DNA from: Chiloscyllium plagiosum
Lineage: Eukaryota
Reading direction: 5' to 3'
Length of the DNA stretch: 64,000 bases
NCBI RefSeq assembly: GCF_004010195.1
Contig: NC_057718.1
Location: 6,362,857-6,426,856, forward strand
Both the position numbers and the translations under genes were made by a program. Of this stretch, positions 1,842-62,350 are shown in pieces (within the stretch, counting starts at the first letter, position 1; every line of letters begins with the position of its first letter). Below the pieces are notes generated by a model. The model saw only the letters and a program-made list of their open reading frames with translations, did no database searches and was not told the DNA's origin.

Positions 1842-2312
1842 AAGCTGAGATGGACACATTTTTAATCAGGAAAGGAATCAAGGCTTTTGGGCGGCATGAT
1901 GGCTCAGTGGTTAACATTGTCGCCTCACAGCGCTAAGGACCCAGGTTCGATTTCTCGGGTGACTGTCTGTGTGGAGTTTGCACATTCTCCCCGTGTCTGC
2001 GTGGGTTTCCTCCGGGTGCTCCGGTTTCCTCCCACAGTCAAAAAGATGAGCAGGTCAGGTGAATTGGCCATGCTAAATTGCCCGTAGTGTTAGGTGCATT
2101 AGTCAGAGGGAAATGGGTCTGGGTGGGTTACTCTTCAGAGGGTCGGTGTGGACTTGTTGGGCCAGAGGGCCTGTTTCCATACTGTAGGGAATCTAATCGG
2201 AAAAAAGGCATGAAAGTGGAGTTGCGGATTGTCAGATTAGCCATGGTCTCATTGCTTTGTGGAGCAGACTCAATGGGCTGAATGCCCTATTTCTACCCCT
2301 GTGTCTTATGGG
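1842..2312 (+). mobile_element. CR1 3' end/UTR interrupted by HE1 SINE
   Basis: aagctgagatggacacattttt..ggaatcaagg resumes after the SINE with gtggagttg..gggctgaatg..tcttatgg. Confidence 0.7.
1888..2198 (+). mobile_element. HE1-type V-SINE
   Basis: tRNA-derived head with box A (tggctcagtggtt) and box B (ggttcgattt), V-domain, CR1-derived tail ending aatctaatc. Confidence 0.92.
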
Positions 2313-4392: not shown

Positions 4393-7360
4393 TTATTTTG
4401 TATTATTCACTTGTGGGAAGTGGATATCACTGGGGGTGAGCTGCCTTCTGGAACCATTGTCGTCCACGTGCTGTGGGCTGACCCACAATGCCCTTAGGGA
4501 GGGAATTCTAGGATTGTGACCCAGTGACACTGAAGGAACAGTGATATATTTCCAAGTCAGGATGGCGAGTGGCTTGGAGGGGAACTTCCAGATGGTAATG
4601 TTCCCATACACCTTTTGATCCCTCTATCCTTCTAGGTGGATGTGGATGTGGGTTTGGAAGGTGCTGTCTGAGGATCTTTGGTGAATTTCTGCAGTGCATC
4701 TTGTAGATATTTCACACTGCTGCTACTGAGTGTTGATGGTGGAGGGAGCAGATGTTTGTGAATGTGGTGCCAGTCAAGGGGTTACTTTGTCCGGGATGGT
4801 GTCAAGCTTCTTGAATGTCGTTGGAGCTTGTCCCATCTAGGCAAGAAGGGAATATTCAATCACACTCCTGACTTGTGCCTTGTAAGTGGTGGACAGGCTT
4901 TGAGAAGTCAGGAGGTGAGTTACTCACTGTAATGTTCCAAACAGCTGATGTGCTCTTATCACCACTGTATTTATATGCAGAGTCCAGTTGAGTTTCTGTT
5001 TGATGGTAATGTTCAGGATGTTGATAGGGGGATTCAGTGATGGTAACACTATTAAATGCTAAGGTGTAGTGGTCTTTTATTGGAGATGGTAATTAATCCT
5101 TGCATTTGTGTGGTGCCAATGTTACTTGTCACTTGTCAGCCCAAGCTTGGATATTGTCCAGATCTTGTTGCAGTTGAATATGAACTGCTTCAGTACCTGA
5201 GGAGTCACAAATGGAGCTGAACGTTGTGCGATCGTTGGCGAATATCTGACCTTTTAATGGAGGGAAGGTCATTGATGAAGCAGCTGAAGATAGTTGGACC
5301 TAGAGCACTATAGAATCATAGAATCCCTACAGTGTGGAAACAGGCCCTTCGGCCCAACAACTCCACAGCAGCCCTTCGAAGAGTAACCCACCCAGACTCA
5401 TTCCTCTGCATTTACCCCTGACTAATGCAGCTAGCCTACATATCCCTGAACACAGTGGGACAACTTAGCATGGCCAATTCACCTGACCTACACATCTTTG
5501 GATTGTGAAACTGGAGCACCCGGAGGAAACCCATGCAAACATCGTGTGAATGTGCAAACTCCACACAGACAGCTGCCTGAGGCTGGAATCGAACCCGGGT
5601 CCCTGGCACTGTGAGGCAACAGTGCTACCCACTGAGGGGCACCTGCAGAGATGTCCTGGAGCTGAGATGACTGACCTCCAACAACTGCAACCATCATCCT
5701 ATAGGTAAATTATGACTCCAACCATCTGATACCCATTGATTTCAGACATCCTAGGGCTCCGTGATGCCACACTCGGTCAAATGCAGTCTTGATGTCAAGG
5801 GTCTGTCATTCTCCCCTCCCCTCTGGAATTCAGCTCTTTTCTCCATGTTTGAACTAAGGCTGTAATGGAGTCAGGAGCTGAGTGCCCTGGCAGAACCCAA
5901 ACTGGGCGTCACTGAGCAGGTTGTTGCTGAGCTGGTGCTGCTTGATAGCCCTGTTGATGACACCTTCCATCACATTACTGATGATCAAGAGTAAACTGAT
6001 GGGTTGGTTACTGGCTGAGTTGGATTTGTCCTGCTTTTTGTGAACAGGACATACCTGTGTAATTGTCCATAGTGTTGTAACTGTACTGGAAGAGCTTGGT
6101 TAGGGAAGCAGTAGGTTATGGAGCACAAGTCTTTAGGAGTATTGCCGGAATGTTGTCAGGGCCCATAGCCTTGGCAATACCCAGTGTCTCCAAAGATGTC
6201 TTAATATCATTTGGAGTGAATCGAATTGGCTGAAGATGCTGGGGACCACTGGTGGAGCCCAAGATGGATCATCCACTCAGCACTTCTGGCCGTAGATTGC
6301 TGCAAATGTTTCAGCCTTATCTTTTGCACTGACGTGCTGGGCTCTTCCATTATTGAGGATGGGGATATTTGTGGAGCGTCCTCCTCCAGTGAGTTGTTTA
6401 GTTAATCATCACCATTCATGACTGGATGTGGCAGGACTGCAGAGCTTAGATCCGATCGATTGGTTGTGGGATTGCATAACTCTATCACTTATGTTGTTTG
6501 ACATGCAAGTAGTTCTGTTTGGTGGCTTCACCAGGTTGACACCTCATTTTCAGGTCTGTCTGGTGCTGCTCCTGGCATGCACTCCTACACTCTCCATTGA
6601 ACCAGGGTTGATCCCCTGGCTTGGTGGTAATGTTTGAGTGGGGGCTATGCCAAGTCATGAGGTTACAGATTTTGCTGGAGTACAGTTCTGCTGCGGTTGA
6701 TGACCCACAACCAGTCTTAAGTTGCTAGATCTGTTTGAAATCTATTCCATTTAGCATGGTGATAGCTCCACACAACATGATGGAGGGCATTCCCAAGGTG
6801 AAGGCAGGACTTGGTCTCCACAAGGACTGTACAGTGGTCTTTCTTACCAATAGCGTCATGGACAGATGCATCTGCAGCTTGGTAGAGATCAGGTCATGGA
6901 TGTTTCTTTCTCTTGTTGGTTCCCTTACCACCTGCCACGGAGCCAGTCTAGGAGCTATGTCCTTTAGGACCCGAACAGCTCCATCAGTAGTCTGGTTGCT
7001 GAGGCACTCTTGGTGGTCGATATTGAAATCTCCCACCCAGAGTACACTTTGTGTCCTAACTACCTTCAGTGTTTCTTTTCAGTGTTATTCAACACCGGGT
7101 GGGGGGGGTGGGGGGAAGAGTATTGATTCATCAGCTGAGGGAGGATGGTTCATAGTAATCAGCAGGAGGTTTCCTTTCCCACGTTTAACCTGAAGCCATG
7201 AGACTTTATGGAGTCCAAAGTCAAAGTCAAGACTCCCAGATCAAATCCCTTCTGACTGTATCCCACTGTGCCACCACCTCTGCTGGGTCTGTCCTGCTGG
7301 TGGGACAGGACATATCTAGAGTTGGTGATGGTGGCTGTCTGGCATATTGTCTGTAAATAT
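4393..7360 (-). mobile_element. CR1-group (Zenon-like) LINE, ~3 kb, endonuclease to 3' end, decayed; HE1 nested inside
   Basis: APE motifs MGDFN..QVVREPTR..DLI at 6725-7036; C-terminus MHCRNSPKILRQHLPNP..WEHYHLEVPLQATRHPDLEIYHCSFSVTGSQSW at 4508-4699. Confidence 0.85.
5311..5636 (-). mobile_element. HE1-type V-SINE
   Basis: Reverse HE1 from the tail (tagaatcatagaatccctac) to the head (cagtgctacccactgag). Confidence 0.9.
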
Positions 7361-8271: not shown

Positions 8272-8568
8272 TTAGATTACTTACAGTGTGGAAACAGGCC
8301 CTTCGGCCCAACAAGTCCACACCGACCCACCAAAGCGCAACCCACCCAGACCCATTCCCCCTTCATCTAACACTACGGGCAATTTAGCATGGCCAGCTCA
8401 CCTAACCTGCACATATTTGGATTGTGGGAGGAAACCGGAGTACCCAGAGGAAACCCACGCCGACACGGGGAGAATGTGCAAACTCCACACAGAGAGTCGC
8501 CTGAGGTGGGAATTGAACCTGGGTCTCTGGCGCTGTGAGGCAGCAGTGCTAACCACTGTGCCACCGTG
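8272..8568 (-). mobile_element. HE1-type V-SINE, low divergence
   Basis: Full reverse copy, ttagatta tail to ccactgtgccaccgtgc head. Confidence 0.93.
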
Positions 8569-8594
8569 CTGTATGACTGTGTGACTTTAAAATA

Positions 8595-8822
8595 ATGCCG
8601 ATACTGGAAATATGAAACTGATGTGGAGAATGCTGGAGAAACTCGGCAGGTCTGGCAGCATCTAGGGAGAGAGAGCGTTGACATTTCAAATCTGATTTGA
8701 CTCTTCATCATTTCTGAGAGGAGCCACTGAAGAGGAATCATATTGGGCTTGAAACGTTAACTCGGTTTCTCTCTCCACGGATGCTACCTGACCTGCTGAG
8801 TTTCTCCAGCATTCTCTGCATC
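8595..8822. mobile_element. Old palindromic Penelope-derived element with degenerate hammerhead motifs
   Basis: Inverted arms gagaatgctggagaaactcggcaggtctggcagcatc / gatgctacctgacctgctgagtttctccagcattctc; centre ctgaaga..gaaacgtt. Confidence 0.75.
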
Positions 8823-27639: not shown

Positions 27640-28535
27640 AATCACCTTGGGGGGTAAAAATGGAAGGTGATAGATTGGAAGAAGGAGGGAAAGAGCAAAG
27701 AGACCTGGGTGTCCTTGTGCACCAGTCACTGAAGGTGAGCATTGCAGGTGCAGCAGGCAGTGAAGAAGGCAAATGGTGTGTTGGCTTTCATACTGAAAGG
27801 AAACAAGTGCAGGAGTAGGGATGTCTTGCTGCATTTGCACAGGGCCTTGGCGAGACCATACCGGGAGAATTGTGTGCAGTGCTGGTCTCTTTATCTAAAG
27901 AAGGATGCCCTGGATGTGTAGGGGCTGCAATGAAGATTATTCAGACTGAGGAAAGGTCACTAGGGTCGAAACATTAACTCTGTTTTTCTCTTCACAGATA
28001 CAGCTAGACATGCTGTGTTTCTCCAGCACATACTCCAGTTCTTTGTTTTATTAACTCGACTGATTCCTGGGAAGGCCAGACTGACCTACAATGGAAAACT
28101 GGATTGGTTAGGACGACATTCACTGGGATTTAGAAGAATGGGAGCGGGCGGGTGGAATCGCATAGTTCTAACACGACTAGGAGAAAGTGAGGTTTGCAGA
28201 TGCTGGAGATCAGAGTCGAGAGTGTGGCAGATGCTGGAGATCAGAGTCGAGAGTGTGGTGCTGGAAAAGCACAGCAGGTCAGGCAGCATTAGAGGAGCAG
28301 AAGAATCGACGTTTCAGGCCAGAGACCTTCATCAGGAATAAGTAGGATGCTACTGTAGACAGGGCAGTCCAGAACCAAGGGTTACAGTCTAAGAATTCAG
28401 GGTAGGATTCAGATCTGGAGAAATGTCTTCACCCAGGCAGTGGTGAACCTGCAGAATTCTTTGTCACAAAAAGTGGTTGAGATCAAAATACTGAATGTTT
28501 CCAAGAAGGAGTTAGATATAGCTCTTACGGATCAA
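27640..28535 (+). mobile_element. CR1 ORF2 3' part with two PLE-derived inserts (27945-28050, 28180-28340)
   Basis: RDLGVLVHQSLKV..QVQQAVKKANGVLAF; PLE terminus with a 25-bp tandem duplication at 28196-28256. Confidence 0.85.
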
Positions 28536-29649: not shown

Positions 29650-30610
29650 AGATGGTGTGTGAGTGAGCAAGAACTTTGCGGCTGGAATATAATGTTGGAA
29701 AACATGAGATTAAATCAGGAGCTAAATATTATTTCAATGGGGAGAGACTGCAGAAAGCTAAGGCACAGAGGGATTTGTAGTTCTCTCTGAACAAATCACA
29801 AAATGTTTGTTCAGATATAGTGTTCATTCAGAAAGTAAATGGAATGTTGGCCTTTATTTCAAAGGGAAAGGATTATAACAACAGAAAGGTTTTGGTAAAA
29901 CTATACAAGGCACTAGTAATGAAAGTTGAAACTTTATTGCTGGAACAGCACAGCAGGTCAGGCAGCATCCAGGGGTGAGGACTGCAGATGCTGGAGATCA
30001 AAGTTGAAACTTTATTGCTGGAACAGCACAGCAGGTCAGGCAGCTTTCAGGGATGCCTCACTTTCTCCTCGAAGGCACTAGTAATGCCATACCTAGAATA
30101 CTGCAAATGGTTTTGCTCCCTCTATCTAAGAAAGAATATAATGGCATTGGAGGTACTTCAGAAAAGGTTCACTCGGTTGATCCCAGGCAGCAACAAGTTT
30201 TCTTACGAGGCAGGGTCAATCAGTTGGGTTTGTTTGGAAGTTTTGAAGAATGAGAAATATATAGGATTCTTAAAGGACTCGGCAGGTGAGATGTGGCAAG
30301 ATTCTTCCCTCTTATGAAACAGTCTAGAACCAGAGGGCAAAGTGTCAGGGGAAAGAGCCACCTAGTTAAGGCCGAGCCGGGGAGGGTAGTGAATCTGTGG
30401 AATTCTTTACCACAGAGGACTATTGAGGCTGGGTCATTCAATATAATCAAGGCTGAGAAAGACATTTGTAATCAGAAAAGGAATCAAAGGTTATGTGATA
30501 AAGACTAGGAAGTGGAGTTGAGGATTATCAGATCATCTAGGATCTTGTTAATTGGTGAAGGAGATTTAATGGGTTGAATAATGTACTTTAGCTCTGATGT
30601 CTTATGGTCT
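29650..30610 (+). mobile_element. CR1 3' fragment with scrambled PLE insert (29922-30071)
   Basis: LYKALV|MPYLEYC..QKRFTRLIP; TSD aaggcactagtaatg at 29907-29921 and 30072-30086. Confidence 0.85.
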
Positions 30611-30649: not shown

Positions 30650-31580
30650 CATCTCCCTTGATGTTCAGAAATCACCATTGCTCAGTAGCACAACGTCAAC
30701 ATCCGTTGACAACAAACTGAAGTGGACATGACACATGAAAACTGGCTGCAAGAACACTCAGAGGCTTGGAAATCTGCAGCTGGTGACTTGTCTCCTGTTT
30801 CCCTATAGCCTATCCATCATCTACAAGGTACAAGTCAGGAGTGAAATGGAATGCTGTCCATTTGCCTGGATGAGTGCAGTTCCAATAGCACTGAATACTG
30901 AGCTTCACGCCATTCAGGACAAAGCAGGCCACCTAATGACCAAATCAGCAACCACCTTAAAACTTCAGTCCATCTGCCACCCACTTAACATGACAGCAAT
31001 GTATATTATCTACAAGACACCCTACAGAAATTCACCAAATCTTCACTAGCATCTTCCAAGCCCATGATCTTTCCCAAATAGAAGGACAAAGGCAGCAGGC
31101 TCATGGGGGAGCCACTAACTTCCAAGCCATACTATCCCAATTTGGAAATCTGTTACTATTCCATCATAGTAACAAGAACATAGTCAAGGTTAGAGTTATG
31201 CTGGAAAAGCACAGCAGGTCAGGCAGCAACCGAGGAGCAGAAAATCGATGTTTCTGGCAAAATCCCTTTAACAGGAATCCTGATGAAGGGCTTTTGCCTG
31301 AAAAGTCAATTTTCCTGCTCTACCAGTGCTGCCTGACCTACTGTGCTTTTCCAGCATCACTCTAATTTTGACTCTAATCGCCAGCATCTGCAGTACCCAC
31401 TTCTGCCTAGTAACAAGAACAATACCCTCGTACATCCTTCTTAACAGTACTGTGGGTATTCCTATACCCTAAGGAATGCAATGTTTCAAGATGCATCTCA
31501 CCAATCCTCCCTCAAGGGCATATGGGATGGACAATAAATGAATATAACCAGCTACTCTCATACTCTATGAACAATAAAAA
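30650..31580 (+). mobile_element. Zenon-like CR1-group LINE 3' part
   Basis: IYKVQVRSEMECCPFAWMSA..IQDKA; family tail gggatggacaataaatg. Confidence 0.82.
31181..31407. mobile_element. Palindromic Penelope mini-element
   Basis: Inverted arms centred on caggaatcctg; TSD tagtaacaagaaca at 31167-31180 and 31408-31421. Confidence 0.88.
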
Positions 31581-35692: not shown

Positions 35693-36372
35693 TGGATGTA
35701 GGTTTGCTCGCTGAGCTGGAAGGTTCATTTTCAGATGCTTCGTCACCACACTAGGTAACATCTTCAGTGAGACTCCGGAAGAAACATTGATGGTATTTCC
35801 TGCTTTCTATTTACATGTTTGGGTTTCCTTGGGTTGGTGATGTCATTTCCTGTGGTGGCATCATTTCCTATGGTGATGTCATTTCTTGTTCTTTTTCTCA
35901 AGGCTTTGTAAATGGGCTCCAAATCAATGTGTTGTTGATAGAGTTCCGATTGGAATGCCATGCTTCTTGGAATTCTCGTGCATGTCTCTGTTTGGCTTGT
36001 CCTAGGATGCATATATTGTCCCAGTCAAAGGGGTGTCCTTCTTTTTCGGCATGTGAGGATACTAGTGAGAGAGGGTCATGTCATTGTGTGGCTAGTTGAT
36101 GTTCATGTATCCTGATGGCTAGTTTTCTGCCTGTTTGTCCAATGTAGTGGTTGTTACAGTTCTTGCATGGTATTTTGTAAATGACATCAGTTTTGCATGT
36201 TGTCTGTATACGGTTTTTCAAGTTAATAAGCTGCTGTTTTAGTGTTTTAGTGAGTTTGTGGGCTACCATGCTGCCAAGTGGTCTGAGTAGTCTGGCAATC
36301 ATTTCCGCGATGTCTTTGATATAGGAGAGAGTGGCTAGGGTTTCTGGACATGTTTTGCCTGTTTGTTTGTAC
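35693..36372 (-). mobile_element. Penelope-like element (Poseidon/Penelope-type) GIY-YIG 3' fragment
   Basis: TLSYIKDIAEMIARLLRP..DVIYKIPCKNCNNHYIGQTGRKLAIRIHEH; short 18-bp repeats at 35837-35890; hammerhead-like terminus. Confidence 0.9.
35731..35770 (-). ncRNA. Degenerate minimal hammerhead ribozyme motif
   Basis: Minus strand UCA-CUGAAGA-U-GUUACC(UAGUGU)GGUGAC-GAAGC-AUC-UGA; two core positions deviate from GAAAC-GUC. Confidence 0.6.
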
Positions 36373-38555: not shown

Positions 38556-38565
38556 ACCTGGAGAA

Positions 38566-38767
38566 AGTGAGGACTGCAGATGCTGGAGATCAGAGCTGAA
38601 AATGTGTTGCTGGAAAAGCGCAGCAGGTCAGACAGCATCCAAGGAACAGGAGAATCGACGTTTCGGGCATAAGCATTCCTGAAGAAGGGCTTATGCCCGA
38701 AACATCGATTCTCCTGTTCCTTGGATGCTGCCTGACCTGCTGCGCTTTTCCAGCAACATATTTTCAG
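38566..38767. mobile_element. Palindromic Penelope mini-element with hammerhead-like motif
   Basis: Near-perfect ~85 bp inverted arms; direct repeat ctctgaacctggagaa at 38550-38565 and 38768-38783. Confidence 0.9.
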
Positions 38768-39899
38768 CTCTGAACCTGGAGAAGGTTAGAGAGCTTGACT
38801 TGATTGTGGTAAAATGGTGGTACAGTCAGACTGAGAACTTTTAGAGTTAAATAAACTCAGGGATAATGTGTGATGGGATTTGATTCAAACTAAGATGTAG
38901 AATACAAGCAATTTTTGCAATATCTGCTATGCCTATAATTACAGCTAGTAGAGGCAAAATGATAACTTTGGCTTGGACCTGTGGATCATTTCATCACCGG
39001 AAGATCTTTTATCTCTTGAATGTTGTTCACAGAAGACATTGTTCCTTCTGGGTCTTGTTGTTTGGCCAATACCGTATCTTGAGTGCCTTAAGTCTCCTAA
39101 ATTTCCTTTGTTGAGGAACTCTCTGCTAACTCAGTTTGTTGCCCCAAAATACCATCTGGAAGACCTTTACGCTCATGGAAGTCCATTATAGACAACATCA
39201 ATGTCAATGAAAGCAATGCTTTCTCTCTTGTTGCAAGCTGGATTTCTGGACGAGCTCACCTCTTTCTAATTGAAAGGTAAATTTCTTTACAGTATCCTGA
39301 ACATTTGGACCATATGGCATAGGAACTGAACTATGCCATTTGGCCCAATGAGTCTGCTCCATCACTCTATCAAATCTGACATGTATCTCAACCCAAACAT
39401 TCATGTTAGCTCACAAGTTACAAGTGTTGATTGTGAACATATAAACATTTTCAACTGTCCTACAATTCTAATGCTGCAGTGTCACTTAGAGTATCCTTAT
39501 GGCCTTGAAAACTATTTCACCTAAACCACATAGCCTCATCATAGGATGATATAGACATGGTTTTATAGCATATTGACATTAGTACTTGTATCAAGCCTAA
39601 ATTTAACAGGATATCCATTAATGTACAGAGGCTCTTTAAATCACAAAATATTGGAAACTCCAGTTTCCCCAATGAATGCCTTGAACATCTATTCTGAAGG
39701 AGATTATTCAACCATATTGAGCACCGCCTATATAACCTTATTTTATGTTTCACCTCTATAACTGTGTTCCACCTCTGCACATGTTATTTGATTTTTATGC
39801 AATTCTGTACCTTAACAATTGATGTCTTCAAGCTGTCCAACCTTATGATTGGGGTAATCCTTCTCTGATCTTGAATCTATGAAGACATAACGTGTTCAC

Positions 39900-51100: not shown

Positions 51101-51129
51101 TTAACATGATTATCTTGAAAGCATTAGGA

Positions 51130-52002
51130 GAGTTAGGGTTACAGCTAAGGTCAAAGTTAAGTTAGAGATAGGGTTAAACTTAGGTTTAGAGTTAGGGTTA
51201 GGGCTAGAGTTAGGGTTAGAGTTAGGTTAGATTAAAGGTTAGACTTGCGATTGGGTTAGAGTTGAGGTTAGTGTTAGAATTAGGATTATGGTTATAGTTG
51301 AGGATAGGGTTAGAGTTAGGGTTATGGTTAGAGTCAGAGTTAGGTTTATGGTTAGAGTTGAGGTTAGAGTTCAAGTTCGGGTTAAGGTTAGAGTTGAGGT
51401 TAGTGTTAGAATTAGGTTTATGGTTAGAGTTGAGGTTAGAGTTCAAGTTCGGGTTAAGGTTAGAGTTGAGGTTAGTGTTAGAATTAGGTTTATGGTTAGA
51501 GTTGAGGTTAGAGTTCAAGTTCGGGTTAAGGTTAGAGTTGAGGTTAGTGTTAGAATTAGGTTTATGGTTAGAGTTGAGGTTAGAGTTCAAGTTCGGGTTA
51601 AGGTTAGAGTTGAGGTTAGTGTTAGAATTAGGTTTATGGTTAGAGTTGAGGTTAGGCTTCGAGTTAGGGTTATGGTTAGAATTGATATTAGGGTTAGAAT
51701 CAGAGTTATGGTTAGAATTGAGATTAGGGTTAGAGTTAGGGTTATGGTTAGAGATTAGAGTTAGGGTTATGGTTAGAATTTAGTTGAGGGTTAGAGTTAG
51801 GGTTATGGTTAGAGATTAGAGTTAGGGTTATGGTTAGAATTTAGTTGAGGGTTAGAGTTAGGGTTATGGTTAGAATTGTGTTTAGGATTAGAGTTAAGGT
51901 TATGGTTAGAGTTGTGCTTAGGGTTGTGATTAGAGTTGAGGTCAGGGTTAGACTTACGGTGATGGTTAGAGTTGAGGTTAGGATTCAGCTTCGGGCTAGG
52001 GA
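51130..52002 (+). repeat. Degenerate telomere-like hexamer array with 72-bp and 61-bp higher-order units
   Basis: TTAGGG/TTAGAG/TTATGG/TTGAGG hexamers; four identical 72-bp units at 51340-51627. Confidence 0.93.
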
Positions 52003-52364
52003 TAGCAGTCCTACATTTTACTCTGACTTCATATGAACAGTTAGATACATGAGTATTGCCAAAAGGAAGAAGATCATCTGGTTCCCCTTCTCCCATCCTG
52101 CTCCAAATATAATACAGCTATTGACCTATACCAGGTACTAATCTCTACCAGTGGGGTGGAATTTAATGCCCATTCCCTCAGTAAGGTTGGTGGCAGACAG
52201 GGCATTTAATCAGGCAGGTGGCTGGTATATGAAGACTCTAATCTCCTTTCCACATCTACCCTGGTGAGTTTCCAGGCAGGAATGCAATGGACATGCAGTG
52301 TAGAATCTTCAATGGGTAATTAATGCCCATTTAAGAAGCTTACTGCACTGCAAATCTTTCCCTT

Positions 52365-57075: not shown

Positions 57076-57290
57076 AGGGGAAAGTGAGGACTGCAGATGC
57101 TGGAGATCAGAGCTGAAAATGTGTTGCTGGAAAAGCGCAGCAGGTCAGGCAGCATCCAGGGAACAGGAGAATCGACGTTTCGGGCATGAGTCCTTCTTTC
57201 CTGAAGAAGGGCTCATGCCCGAAACATCGATTCTCCTGCTCCTTGGATGCTGCCTGACCTGCTGTGCTTTTCCAGCAACACATTTTCAGA
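57076..57290. mobile_element. Palindromic Penelope mini-element with hammerhead-like motif
   Basis: Inverted arms; TSD tagaaaggaaactgg at 57061-57075 and 57291-57305. Confidence 0.9.
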
Positions 57291-57677
57291 TAGAAAGGAA
57301 ACTGGGCTAACTATATAAATATTGTGGCTGCAAGAGCTGGTCAGAGGATAATAACTGTGTGGTGAGTAACTCATCTCATGTTTCCCTAAAGACTGTCCAC
57401 CACCAGCAAATCATCAATCAGGGGTGTGACAGAATTCTCCCTAAATAATTGCAGCTCCAACAAGAGCTAAGAAGCTTGACACCATCCAGGGATTCAAGGC
57501 ACTAGGTCTAAAAGCTCTGCATTTCCTTCCTAACAGCACTGAGAGTGACATTCCACACCAGGGATTGCAACTGTACAAGAAGACAGCTCACCCCCATTTT
57601 ACCTTGACTATCAGGGATGGTTGAAACTTTATTGCTGGAACAGCACAGCAGGTCAGGCAGCATCCAGGGAACAGGAG

Positions 57678-57713
57678 ATTCGACGTTTCGGGCACAGGCC
57701 CTTCTTCAGGAAT
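57678..57713 (-). ncRNA. Minimal type-I hammerhead ribozyme motif
   Basis: AUUC-CUGAAGA-A-GGGC(CUGU)GCCC-GAAAC-GUC-GAAU: core intact, 4-bp stem I, 4-bp stem II. Confidence 0.8.
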
Positions 57714-57939
57714 GAGCAGAGAGTGTTCAGCAGGAGAAGATAAAAGGTAGGGAGGAGGGACTTGGAGGAGGGGCGTTGGAAATGTGATAGGTGGAAAGAG
57801 GTCAAGGTGAGGGTGATAGGTCGGAGTAGGATGGAGGCGGAGAGGTCAAGAAGAAGACTGCAGGTCAGGAAGGCGGTGCCGGGCTGGAGGGATTCGGCTG
57901 AGACAAGGTGGGGGGAGGGGGGATGAAGAAACTGTCCAA

Positions 57940-58272
57940 GTTCATCCCCTGTGGTTGGAGGGTTCCCAGTCAGAAGATAAGACCGTCGCGTTGTTGTGGT
58001 TTGGCGGTGGATGAGTCCAATGACCTGCATATCCTCGGTGGAGTGGGAGGGGGAGTTGAAATGCTGTGCTACAGGGTGGTTGGGTTGGTTCGTCCGGGTG
58101 GCCCAGAGGTGCTCTCTGAATCGCTCCGCAAGTAGGCGGCCTGTCACCCCAATATAGAGGAGGCCACACCGGCTGCAGCGGATGCAGTAGATGATGTGGT
58201 TGGAGGTGCAGGTGAATCTGTGGCGGATATGGAAGTTTCCCTTGGGGCCTTGGAGAGAAGTGAGGGGGGAGG
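57940..58272 (-). pseudogene. Penelope GIY-YIG endonuclease domain
   Basis: FTCTSNHIIYCIRCSRCGLLYIGVTGRLLAERFREHL..PVAQHFN; deletion near the C-terminus. Confidence 0.88.
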
Positions 58273-58590
58273 TAGAATCGTTTCTACCTCCTGCCCAAAA
58301 TCCACAAACCTGACTGCCCCGGACGACCCATCGTCTCAGCCTGCTCCTGCCCAACCGAACTCATCTCGGCATACCTCGACACGGTCCTGTCCCCATTAGT
58401 CCAAGAACCCCCCACCTACGTCCGTGACACCACCCACGCCCTCCACCTCCTCCAGGACTTCCGCTTCCCCGGTCCCCAACGCCTCATCTTCACCATGGAC
58501 ATCCAGTCCCTGTACACCTCCATCCCCCATCACAAAGGACTCAAAGCACTCCGCTTCTTCCTCTCCCGCCGTACCACCCAGTACCCTTCC

Positions 58591-59482
58591 CTGAGATAGA
58601 AACAGAAAGGTCTCGGAAGGGGAGGGAGGAGTCCGAGACTGTCCAGGTGAATTTGAGGTTGGGGTGGAAGGTGTTAGTGTAGTGGATGAACTGTTCAACC
58701 TCCTCGTGGGAGCACGAGGTAGCGCCGATACAGTCATCAATGTAGCGAAGGAAGAGATGGGGGGTGGGGCCAGTGTATTTGCGGAAGATGGATTGTTCCA
58801 CATACCCTACGAAGAGGCAGGCATAGCTGGGGCCCATGCGGGTGCCCATGGCTACTCCTTTTGTTTGGAGAAAGTGGGAGGATTGGAAAGGAAAGTTGTT
58901 CAGGGTGAGGACCAGTTCGGTCAGTCGAAGGAGGGTGTCGGTGGAAGGGTACTGGGTGGTACGGCGGGAAAGGCAGAAGCGGAGTGCTTTGAGTCCTTCG
59001 TGATGGGGGATGGAGGTGTACAGGGACTGGATGTCCATGGTGAAGATGAGGCGTTGGGGACCGGGGAAGCGGAAATCCTGGAGGAGGTGGAGGGCGTTGG
59101 TGGTGTCACGAACGTAGGTGGGGATTTCTTGGACTAATGGGGACAGGACCGTGTCGAGGTATGCCGAGATGTGTTCGGTTGGGCAGGAGCAGGCTGAGAC
59201 GATGGGTCGTCTGGGGCAGTCAGGTTTGTGGATTTTGGGCAGGAGGTAGAAACGGGCGGTGCGGGGTTGTGGGACTATGAGGTTGGAGGCGGTGGATGGG
59301 AGGTCCCCTGAGGTGATGAGGTTATGGATGGTCTGGGAGATGATGGTTTGGTGGTGGGGGGTGGGGTCATGGTCAAGGGGACGGTAGGAGGAGGTATCTG
59401 CGAGATTTTTCTGGCGTTTGGCCTCAGCGTTGTAAAGGTGAGTGCGCCAAACTACTACTGCGCCTCCCTTGTCAGCTGGTTT
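58591..59482 (-). pseudogene. Penelope reverse transcriptase domain; open frame but 5' truncated and interrupted
   Basis: ORF 58541-59527 contains RT motifs A (MDIQSLY), B' (GVAMG) and C (YIDD). Confidence 0.9.
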
Positions 59483-59754
59483 GGGCAAAGTCTTAGTGCT
59501 GACCCAGCCAACAGTGCACGCATCCAATGAAGAACTGAAAAGTTAAATTGCATTGTCGGCCCATAGTAATTGATGGAACAATGTTCTTCACAGTTTCAAT
59601 CTAAGCTTGAGGTAAGTGTCACCTCAGAAGAGACCACTGATGATACAGAAGAGGCCATTAATTTCTTGGATATAGAGGAGTCAGCAATAACCATTAAAGT
59701 AATAAAATTAGGATTAAGGAAAAAGTCACTTCAGCAGTCTGAGTGTCGAATAAA

Positions 59755-59944: not shown

Positions 59945-60070
59945 AAAACAAAAGAACTGCAGATGGTGTACATCAAAAACAAGAACAGAAGTTGCTGGAA
60001 AAGCACGGCAGGTCTGGCAGGAGTTGCCGAGAGAAATCGGAGTTAACGTTTCAGACCCTTCCTCAGAACT
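59945..60070 (-). mobile_element. Old Penelope-derived terminal fragment
   Basis: agaactgcagatg..gttgctggaaaagcac..gttaacgtttc..ccttcctcagaa. Confidence 0.65.
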
Positions 60071-60191
60071 GGTTTCATGATTCATTGTTCCTTCAAGGCT
60101 CATGATATTTTTTGTATCCATGGTTTAGGTGTGTTCCCAGTTACCTCTTACAAATATTTATTGAGTTTGCAGATAGAATCAGCCTGACAGC

Positions 60192-60547
60192 TGCCCTGCA
60201 TGGCTGATCCACACACCCTCGCCTGTCACTTCCTGGCCTGTCACTTCCTGCCCTGCATGGTTGATCCACACACCCTCGCCTGTCACTTCCTGGCCCGCAT
60301 GGTTGATCCACACACCCTCGCCTGTCACTTCCTGGCCTGCATGGTTGATCCACGCACCCTAGCCTGTCACTTCCTGGCCCGCATAGTTGATCCACGCACC
60401 CTAGCCTGTCACTTCCTGGCCCGCATGGTTGATCCACGCACCCTAGCCTGTCACTTCCTGTCCTGCATGGTTGATCCACACACCCTAGCCTGTCACTTCC
60501 TGCCCTGCATGGTTGATCCACACACCCTAGCCTGTCACTTCCTGGCC
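60192..60547. repeat. 42-bp minisatellite, ~8 units
   Basis: Unit catggttgatccacacaccctagcctgtcacttcctggcccg with point variants and one 15-bp partial duplication. Confidence 0.95.
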
Positions 60548-61182: not shown

Positions 61183-61302
61183 GCTTCCTGAAGAAGGGCT
61201 TCCTGAAGAAGGGCTTATGCCCGAAACGTCGATTCTCCTGTTCCCTTTCCAGCAACACATTTTCAGCTCTGATCTCCAGCATCTGCAGACCTCACTTTCT
61301 CC
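61183..61302 (+). mobile_element. Penelope terminal mini-insertion with intact hammerhead core
   Basis: ttcctgaagaagggcttatgcccgaaacgtcga; TSD tcattacactgaatg at 61168-61182 and 61303-61317. Confidence 0.88.
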
Positions 61303-61359
61303 TCATTACACTGAATGAAAACTAACAATTTTCTTCACTGGGTTATCTTTCATAACACC

Positions 61360-61997: not shown

Positions 61998-62350
61998 TCA
62001 TGGCTCAGTGGTTAGCACTGTTGCCTCACAGCACCAGAGGCCCAGGTTAGATTCCAAACTCGAATGACTACCTGTGTGGAGTTTGCACATTCGTCTCGTG
62101 TCGGCATAGGTTTCCTCTGGGTGCTCCAGTTTCCTCCCACAGTCCAAAGATGTGCAGGTTAGCTGAATTGGCCATGCTAAATTGCCCATAGTGTTTAGGG
62201 ATGTTGAGGTTAGGTGCATTAGTCAGGGATAAATATAGGAAAAATAGGGTGGGGAAATGAATCTGGGTGGGTTGCTCATTGGAGGATCGGTGTGGACTTG
62301 TTGGGCCAAAGGGCCTGTTTCCACACTGTAGGGATTTTATGATTCTATGA
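61998..62350 (+). mobile_element. HE1-type V-SINE
   Basis: Head, V-domain, tail gattctatga. Confidence 0.92.

What the first reader, a model, noticed from the sequence alone, without database searches (positions are those of the whole stretch)
57678..57713. Intact minimal hammerhead ribozyme at the 3' terminus of a shark Penelope element
Seen: the minus strand reads AUUC CUGAAGA A GGGC-CUGU-GCCC GAAAC GUC GAAU. This has the full catalytic core (CUGANGA, GAAA, NUH = GUC), complementary stem I (AUUC/GAAU) and stem II, one extra A after A9, and a loopless palindromic stem III (AC-GU). Established: Penelope-like elements carry such minimal type-I hammerheads, which are thought to cleave as dimers. 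Other copies vary the stem II loop (UUAU at 38680 and 61203, UCAU at 57200, UUUU at 31280) while keeping the stem. Inference: this pattern reflects selection on RNA structure.
Basis: partly seen in the sequence, partly recalled or inferred. Interest (0 to 1): 0.7.

Follow-up and report, generated by a model that had tools for sequence, protein, structure and literature searches.

The report
Penelope retrotransposon minimal hammerhead, dead copy
The motif is a real, intact copy of the small hammerhead self-cutting RNA already known from Penelope-like jumping genes, sitting in a broken copy; its many sister copies begin just before the ribozyme rather than at its cut site, which suggests the element is copied mostly from uncut RNA.

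Summary
Confirmed: 57678-57713 (−) is an exact minimal type-I hammerhead of the kind described in Penelope-like elements (PLEs) in 2014. It ends a 1.86-kb, 5'-truncated, internally inverted (dead) copy of a young Neptune-type PLE whose protein's closest named relatives are from sharks. The core pattern occurs 168,137 times in the genome (reversed control 1,398); this subfamily has about 20,000 copies.

Three of its four comparison copies have a broken ACGU palindrome, covariation within the family is not significant, and young copies decay equally inside and outside the motif. Constraint shows only between families.

Main added result: copies do not start at the cut site. A tail marker counts 19,796 copies; 16,674 reach just after the cut, 16,548 just before it, 12,007 the CUGA box, 4,482 further upstream. 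57 of 100 mapped 5' ends lie at the ribozyme's 5' edge. Uncleaved RNA that probably begins at the ribozyme is the main template, as an in vitro Anolis study implies. Cleavage itself is untested. The scan noted this family and this 5'-end clustering before, on other DNA.

The parts
57678..57713 (-). Minimal type-I hammerhead motif: stem I 57713-57710 with 57681-57678, core, extra A, stem II with CUGU loop, ACGU palindrome; predicted cut after C17 at 57682
57620..57677 (-). Element 3' end after the ribozyme, short-tail form; it stops at the first of two 3' end positions (about 62 and 98 nt past the cut) seen in sister copies
57714..57870 (-). Pyrimidine-rich 3' UTR / pseudo-LTR upstream of the ribozyme (bounds approximate; the ORF stop lies about 150 nt before the motif in intact sister copies)
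57870..58273 (-). GIY-YIG endonuclease region with two small deletions (14 and 6 nt) relative to sister copy L064 (lower bound approximate)
58279..58590 (+). 312-nt inverted duplicate of RT sequence 58943-59254 (96.8% identical), standing in place of about 526 nt of the ORF; breaks the copy
58590..59483 (-). Reverse transcriptase region, 5'-truncated at about 59483; no target-site duplication visible at the element's ends
57077..57288 (.). Head-to-head fold-back mini insertion of a sister subfamily (UCAU loop); + arm has a broken palindrome, - arm lacks CUGA
38560..38769 (.). Fold-back mini insertion (UUAU loop), one long-tail and one short-tail arm; + arm starts at the ribozyme's 5' edge, palindrome broken
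31199..31402 (.). Older fold-back mini insertion (UUUU loop), both arms decayed
61199..61304 (+). Mini copy (UUAU loop) with intact core, 2-bp stem I, a 15-nt duplication at its 5' end and an internal deletion

Best explanation
The motif is the standard minimal hammerhead of an endonuclease-positive, Neptune-type PLE, and this copy is an inert passenger. In a tandem source element the same module lies upstream of the next ORF: ribozyme, tail, then the start codon about 135 nt past the cut site (module order shown; join to a whole ORF inferred). The source RNA most likely begins at the 5' strand of stem I, about 32 nt before the cut (inferred). The RT starts internally at one of two tail sites, about 62 or 98 nt past the cut (two 3' end classes shown; mechanism taken from the Anolis study). 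When it starts at the RNA's first tail it runs through the uncut ribozyme and off the RNA's 5' end, leaving minis of about 95 or 130 nt, often as head-to-head pairs. When it starts at the downstream tail it gives long, randomly truncated copies like this one. The ribozyme is probably weakly or conditionally active (as a double hammerhead through the ACGU palindrome, or with help from the element's protein), but cleaved RNA is not the main template for short insertions.
For: Motif matches the published consensus. RT and GIY-YIG lie upstream, in one 649-673 aa frame in sister copies. Linker CX4CxxC and CxxC between GIY and YIG are present, the marks of Neptune/Nematis in PMC8557442 (passages). 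Genome-wide counts with a fixed tail marker: 19,796; 16,674 with the 8-mer just after the cut; 16,548 with the 8-mer just before it; 12,007 with the CUGA box; 4,482 with an 8-mer 36-43 nt upstream. Of the first 100 marker hits on contig C1, 57 start 26-35 nt before the cut (26 of them at 31-32), 6 start within -4..+1, 15 extend beyond -35. 3' ends: 35 of 100 at 1-3 nt and 44 of 100 at 36-38 nt past the marker. 48 of the 100 hits form 24 head-to-head pairs. Target-site duplications of 7-16 bp in 18 of 44 short solo copies. Unselected copies of sister subfamilies: 11 of 24 rows start at -26..-36 (one locus counted twice). The frame after the tail aligns to the first 26 residues of a full-length homolog (42% identity, E 0.015 among 121 proteins). 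A three-ribozyme unit is identical over 835 nt on two contigs with different 3' flanks. PMC11167929 (parts 1-2 of 4): internal RT starts define the tail, ribozyme mutants do not affect insertion, cleavage needs the protein.
Against: No cleavage assay. No full-length ribozyme-ORF-ribozyme copy was found: 0 of 10, 0 of 6, 0 of 14. A transcription start at -32 is inferred only from DNA junctions; the one informative RNA run showed no end pile-ups and its library type cannot show ends. The UUUU-loop subfamily shows the peak weakly (6 of 22). The 100 mapped copies come from the first 18 Mb of one contig, and ungapped extension misplaces copies with indels. The before-cut 8-mer was degenerate at four positions and the after-cut one at one, so their near-equality bounds cut-site starts only to a few percent. 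In folding models stem I is poorly populated in mini context (pair probability 0.02-0.15) and the double hammerhead is 5 kcal/mol (trans) to 9 kcal/mol (cis) above the lowest-energy fold.
Confidence: 0.62

Rival explanations
1. Processing-and-circle model (Cervera and de la Pena 2014): two ribozymes in a tandem transcript cut out a unit that is ligated into a circle, and the circle is the template, at least for long and tandem copies. The minis would be a side product of uncut RNA.
For: Proposed in PMC4209133. Same-strand arrays of the motif with units of 194-559 nt exist in 7 loci (L023, L071-L076), and two successive 194-nt units occur in L075. About 23% of copies extend upstream of the ribozyme. 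A ligated circle leaves no scar at the cut, so my junction map cannot exclude it.
Against: Array units vary in length and their joints lie at the ribozyme's 5' edge or at short shared words, not in register at the cut. The arrays were found with a query taken from an array, so they are enriched; only 1 of 74 unselected clusters on C1 held a three-unit array. The Anolis study found uncut RNA to be the dominant substrate.
Confidence: 0.25
2. The 5' end peak is not the RNA's 5' end. It is made at the DNA stage, by the endonuclease nicking the ATT at stem I or by short-homology joining and fold-back at the ribozyme's palindromic words; or it marks the 3' end of an antisense template (self-priming model).
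For: The Anolis endonuclease prefers ATT and the peak begins with ATT. 1-5 nt shared with the target is common at 5' junctions (11 of 18 with a duplication). Six of the starts at -26 include five fold-back joints at one shared word. Antisense self-priming is argued in PMC3846280 (passages).
Against: ATT also occurs just after the cut (on the other strand in this subfamily, on the same strand in sister subfamilies), yet only 2 of 100 and 3 of 24 rows (one at an assembly gap) start there. Solo copies with target-site duplications show the same peak. 3' ends are sharper than 5' ends, as expected if the RT starts at the tail.
Confidence: 0.2
3. The motif no longer cleaves in this lineage. It is kept as a protein-binding, promoter or start-site signal, or simply hitchhikes because it lies next to the RT start.
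For: No mark of cleavage in about 20,000 insertions. Most sister subfamilies carry a U-U mismatch in a 4-bp stem I. Only 1 of 9 Xenopus dimers cleaved in the 2026 preprint. PMC8557442 raises that hammerheads may simply parasitise PLEs.
Against: The catalytic boxes, extra nucleotide and palindrome are kept across families whose stems differ in sequence and length yet still pair, and across animals. Anolis C3G and G8C mutants lose cleavage and the double mutant partly restores it.
Confidence: 0.15

Closest known systems
Minimal hammerheads (min-HHR) in PLE pseudo-LTRs, Cervera and de la Pena 2014 (PMC4209133; main text parts 1-2 of 4 and supplement file 2 part 2 read)
   Same: CUGANGAH, G-C opening of helix II, GAAAC-GUH with no helix III loop, short helix I, U-rich upstream; mostly single dispersed copies; opposite-strand pairs also noted there.
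   Different: No cartilaginous fish found in supplement file 2 by four name searches (file 1 not searchable). Count here is 168,137 against about 4,000 (coelacanth) and 9,000 (Xenopus), with different descriptors and assemblies. 5' ends of copies were not mapped in the parts read.
Poseidon element of Anolis carolinensis (PAc), Frangieh et al. 2024 (PMC11167929; parts 1-2 of 4 read)
   Same: Ribozyme near the ORF start, two internal RT start sites defining a tail, uncut RNA as template.
   Different: Here the element is Neptune-type, and both tail and ribozyme lie before the likely start codon, not inside the ORF. The evidence here is genomic junction counts, not biochemistry. Their Fig. S2 could not be seen and may bear on copy 5' ends.
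Short-stem-III hammerhead variants that cleave as dimers, Lunse, Weinberg and Breaker (PMC5785218)
   Same: Same class and dimer model, as cited in review PMC6765202 (passages).
   Different: Paper not held, so I could not check whether shark examples or 5' end positions are in it.
Non-LTR retrozymes (bioRxiv 10.64898/2026.07.22.740005; parts 1-3 of 5 read)
   Same: Tandem hammerhead units derived from PLE pseudo-LTRs; reported in one chondrichthyan species.
   Different: The window copy is a single motif on an ORF-bearing copy. Arrays of this subfamily are short and have uneven units.

Membership tests
PLE minimal hammerhead (min-HHR) | Catalytic boxes CUGANGA, GAAA and NUH in order | tested here: met
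PLE minimal hammerhead (min-HHR) | [quoted passage not shown] | tested here: met
   features as listed in PMC4209133
PLE minimal hammerhead (min-HHR) | Palindromic 15.2/16.2 with no helix III loop; short helix I; paired helix II | tested here: met
   a nested double hammerhead with 20 standard pairs can be drawn
PLE minimal hammerhead (min-HHR) | Located in the terminal repeat of a PLE | tested here: met
PLE minimal hammerhead (min-HHR) | Covariation of helices across copies | tested here: inconclusive
   Not significant within the family; stems differ yet pair between families, small numbers; second-family test weak, 0 mismatched of 100 but only 2 informative (tallied by eye)
PLE minimal hammerhead (min-HHR) | Self-cleavage after the NUH triplet as dimer or with protein | not testable with these tools
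   no assay; RNA reads uninformative on ends
Rfam hammerhead families | Score at the curated threshold | tested here: not met
   expected for a motif without helix III (inference)
Endonuclease-positive PLE | One ORF with RT and C-terminal GIY-YIG, CxxC between GIY and YIG | tested here: met
   sister copy protein P0001 (GIY-YIG E 5.6e-4, under the curated cut-off); window copy broken
Endonuclease-positive PLE | Optional 30-40 bp tail and adjacent inverted 5'-truncated copies | tested here: met
Endonuclease-positive PLE | Partial-tandem full-length copy with two pseudo-LTRs | tested here: inconclusive
   none among 30 loci examined
Neptune/Nematis clades | CX2-5CxxC zinc-finger linker between RT and endonuclease | tested here: met
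   definition from PMC8557442
Neptune/Nematis clades | RT phylogeny with reference clade members | not tested
   no labelled references held
Non-LTR retrozyme | Two or more consecutive units each with a whole hammerhead, no ORF | tested here: not met
   window copy is single; sister loci L023, L071-L076 have such arrays

The most novel reading that the evidence does not exclude
The element's mRNA is capped at the first base of stem I, so the hammerhead is a self-decapping switch: cleavage, triggered by the element's own protein or by a second copy, removes the 32-nt capped leader and shuts off translation or takes the RNA out of the template pool. The roughly 170,000 genomic motifs would then be a fossil record of run-off copies from uncut RNA. 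One full-text search (Penelope + ribozyme + decapping) found no paper; subscription papers were not searched.
Probability: 0.15. Interest if true: 0.65.

Novelty: new member of a known kind. Interest (0 to 1): 0.32.

Why it matters
The motif itself is ordinary. Its value is as a test bed. What PLE hammerheads do is described as unclear (PMC8557442), and this young family (about 0.4% divergence, about 20,000 copies) records the ends of its RNA templates in the genome. That record shows no step at the cut site and a strong step at the ribozyme's 5' edge. It is in vivo-derived support for uncut RNA as the template and gives a precise prediction (a cap about 32 nt before the cut) that one experiment can test. 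It also explains why a shark-type genome carries far more of these motifs than reported for coelacanth or frog: most are short by-products.

Tried and rejected
Rfam scans: no hammerhead hit; the one E=10 microRNA match is chance. A first window pattern had a wrong gap and found nothing. One count pattern had a gap one base too long (6 hits) and was discarded and redone. Run search: no RNA holder listed. Read lay: run X20 gave 571 reads on both strands, 87% running into unlike sequence, no end pile-ups; X21 gave none; X10 and X15 are contigs. This says nothing on cleavage or start sites. Full-length source element: not found in 30 loci. Covariation within the family: not significant. Selection on inserted copies: none seen, low power. 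A splice acceptor at the ribozyme's 5' edge, as in Drosophila Penelope, was rejected: no AG there and no recurrent upstream exon among 100 junctions. RT stalling at the structure was rejected: ends fall on its far side. An untemplated cap-derived G was looked for by eye (5 of 12 starts at -32 follow a G) and is inconclusive. Literature searches for shark examples and for 5' end mapping returned no such paper in their listings. A larger random genome sample was not available, so junction mapping rests on 74 short loci from one contig.

Full report
Observation. It has a 4-bp stem I, CUGAAGA, one extra A, a 4-bp stem II with a CUGU loop, GAAAC-GUC with no helix III loop, and C17 at 57682. It folds into stems I and II (-7.1 kcal/mol) but not better than shuffles (z -0.81). 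Rfam does not score it. It matches the consensus printed for PLE minimal hammerheads in the supplement of PMC4209133. The core pattern has 168,137 matches in the 3.56-Gb genome against 1,398 for the reversed control.

The element. Upstream on the same strand lie an RT frame (RVT_1, E 2.7e-8) and a GIY-YIG frame (E 1.3e-4). Against sister copy L064 the element spans 59483-57620. It is 5'-truncated, has two small deletions in the endonuclease region, and about 526 nt of ORF are replaced by a 312-nt inverted duplicate of RT sequence. So this copy is dead. Sister copies L062 and L064 keep one 649-673 aa frame, with the motif about 150 nt past the stop. The protein has a CX4CxxC linker and CxxC between GIY and YIG; PMC8557442 gives the linker as the mark of Neptune and Nematis (passages). 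No tree was built. Its best named homologs are from Chiloscyllium (79%), Rhincodon (66%), Mobula (73%), Hypanus and Stegostoma. That fits a shark host; the species was not determined. The subfamily is very young: all of the top 40 hits to a 191-nt query are 99-100% identical (selected as best hits), and a 24-nt tail marker has 19,796 exact matches.

The selection claim. On 18 family copies no covariation measure beat the shuffles (score reached by 70 of 500), and one stem I pair is unpaired in 16 of 18: the perfect stem I is a trait of this subfamily. In 67 young copies anchored outside the motif, non-CpG changes were 6 of 1206 inside and 9 of 2546 outside (p 0.58). The loops recur as subfamily markers (CUGU 106, UUAU 15, UUUU 11, UCAU 6, AUGU 4 among 179 contexts in a sample enriched for the first), which fits constraint on source elements but is a handful of events. 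Between families the boxes are kept while stems change: a second family has a 6-bp stem II and a UGCA/UGCA stem I in 2 of 4 copies, with a third differing at one base. Its 5,051 matches show U-A, U-G or C-G and no C-A at a variable pair in the first 100 (by eye; only 2 informative).

Where copies begin. I fetched all 74 clusters holding the first 100 marker hits on contig C1 and mapped their ends (0 = first base after the cut). Ten start at +6 or later (some are indel artefacts), 6 at +1 to -4, 12 at -10 to -24, 57 at -26 to -35 with 26 at -31/-32, and 15 further upstream. Position -32 is the first base of stem I. Genome-wide counts agree: 16,674 marker copies carry the word just after the cut, 16,548 the word just before it, 12,007 the CUGA box, 4,482 a word 36-43 nt upstream. 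The before-cut word was more degenerate, so this bounds cut-site starts to a few percent. 3' ends fall in two classes, 35 at 1-3 nt and 44 at 36-38 nt past the marker, the known PLE tail. 24 head-to-head pairs hold 48 of the 100 hits. 18 of 44 short solo copies show 7-16 bp target duplications. Sister subfamilies with UUAU/UCAU loops show the same peak (19 of 25 core-selected; 11 of 24 unselected rows); the UUUU subfamily shows it weakly (6 of 22).

What lies downstream. In tandem loci the tail continues into a frame whose first 26 residues align to the start of a full-length homolog (42%, E 0.015 among 121 proteins), with the ATG about 135 nt past the cut. So in a tandem source the order is ribozyme, tail, ORF. 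I found no complete ribozyme-ORF-ribozyme copy in 30 loci. Same-strand arrays of 2-6 motifs occur in L023 and L071-L076, found with a query from an array. L071 and L073 share 835 identical bases across three motifs on different contigs. Array units are uneven and join near the ribozyme's 5' edge.

Mechanism. Shown: structure, context, two 3' end classes, the 5' end peak, no step at the cut. Taken from PMC11167929 (parts 1-2 of 4): the PLE RT starts inside its RNA at tail sites, the ribozyme cleaves only with the protein, and its mutants still insert. Inferred: the RNA starts at stem I, RT started at the first tail runs off that end to give 95- and 130-nt minis, and RT started at the last tail gives long copies like this one. 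An internal promoter in the pseudo-LTR is known for Drosophila Penelope (PMC2377424, passages); the likeness of the -32 site to an initiator motif is recalled, from no call. Folding says a double hammerhead can be drawn with all standard pairs but lies 5-9 kcal/mol above the best fold, in line with the low activity reported. Rivals are the circle model for long copies, a DNA-stage or antisense origin of the 5' peak, and a non-cleaving role.

Prior knowledge and verdict. The class dates from 2014 (PMC4209133), with opposite-strand pairs already noted. A 2026 preprint finds retrozymes in one chondrichthyan. The Lunse paper was not available, and Fig. S2 of the Anolis paper, supplement file 1 of the 2014 paper and the preprint's supplements could not be seen; any of them may bear on novelty. 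Earlier notes of this scan report the same family and, in e1-7858714, the same 5' end clustering; I had that result, before the look-up. Verdict: real, a new member of a known kind, with one useful, testable addition. Interest 0.32.

Noticed in passing
L075:385-1873 (also L023, L071-L074, L076): Arrays of 2-6 near-identical hammerhead units (194, 224, 430, 559 nt) with uneven joints; natural substrates for a dimer cleavage test. A three-unit form recurs on at least three contigs.
   Followed up: partly
window 8723-8762 (+), 27942-27979 (+), about 60045-60075 (-); L048, L020: Older hammerhead-like family with a GUU cut triplet and a different stem I 3' strand; mostly decayed.
   Followed up: partly
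window 35716-35771 (-); L019, L046, L063: Second family with a 6-bp stem II and self-complementary UGCA stem I; about half of the first 100 genome matches have G-U in place of the G10.1-C11.1 pair as a shared subfamily trait (by eye).
   Followed up: partly
window 29919-30055: Two same-strand tail fragments of this subfamily that lack the ribozyme altogether (start 12 nt or more past the cut).
   Followed up: no
L075:1270-1398: A 42-codon upstream frame starts 18 nt past the cut and overlaps the likely ORF start; it may limit translation.
   Followed up: no
L050:1211 (-), L160:1248 (-): Two fold-back joints fall 3 nt past the cut; either stem I complementarity used for joining or rare cleaved templates.
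   Followed up: partly
window 1889-2198, 5310-5636, 8272-8569, 62000-62339 and about ten more: A 300-nt interspersed repeat family, 65-88% alike; resembles an elasmobranch SINE (recalled, not tested).
   Followed up: no
window 51129-52005: Degenerate telomere-like tandem array with 6, 18 and 36-nt periods.
   Followed up: no
window 60232-60547: 42-nt minisatellite, 7.5 copies, 94% alike, 700 nt from the element's 5' end.
   Followed up: no
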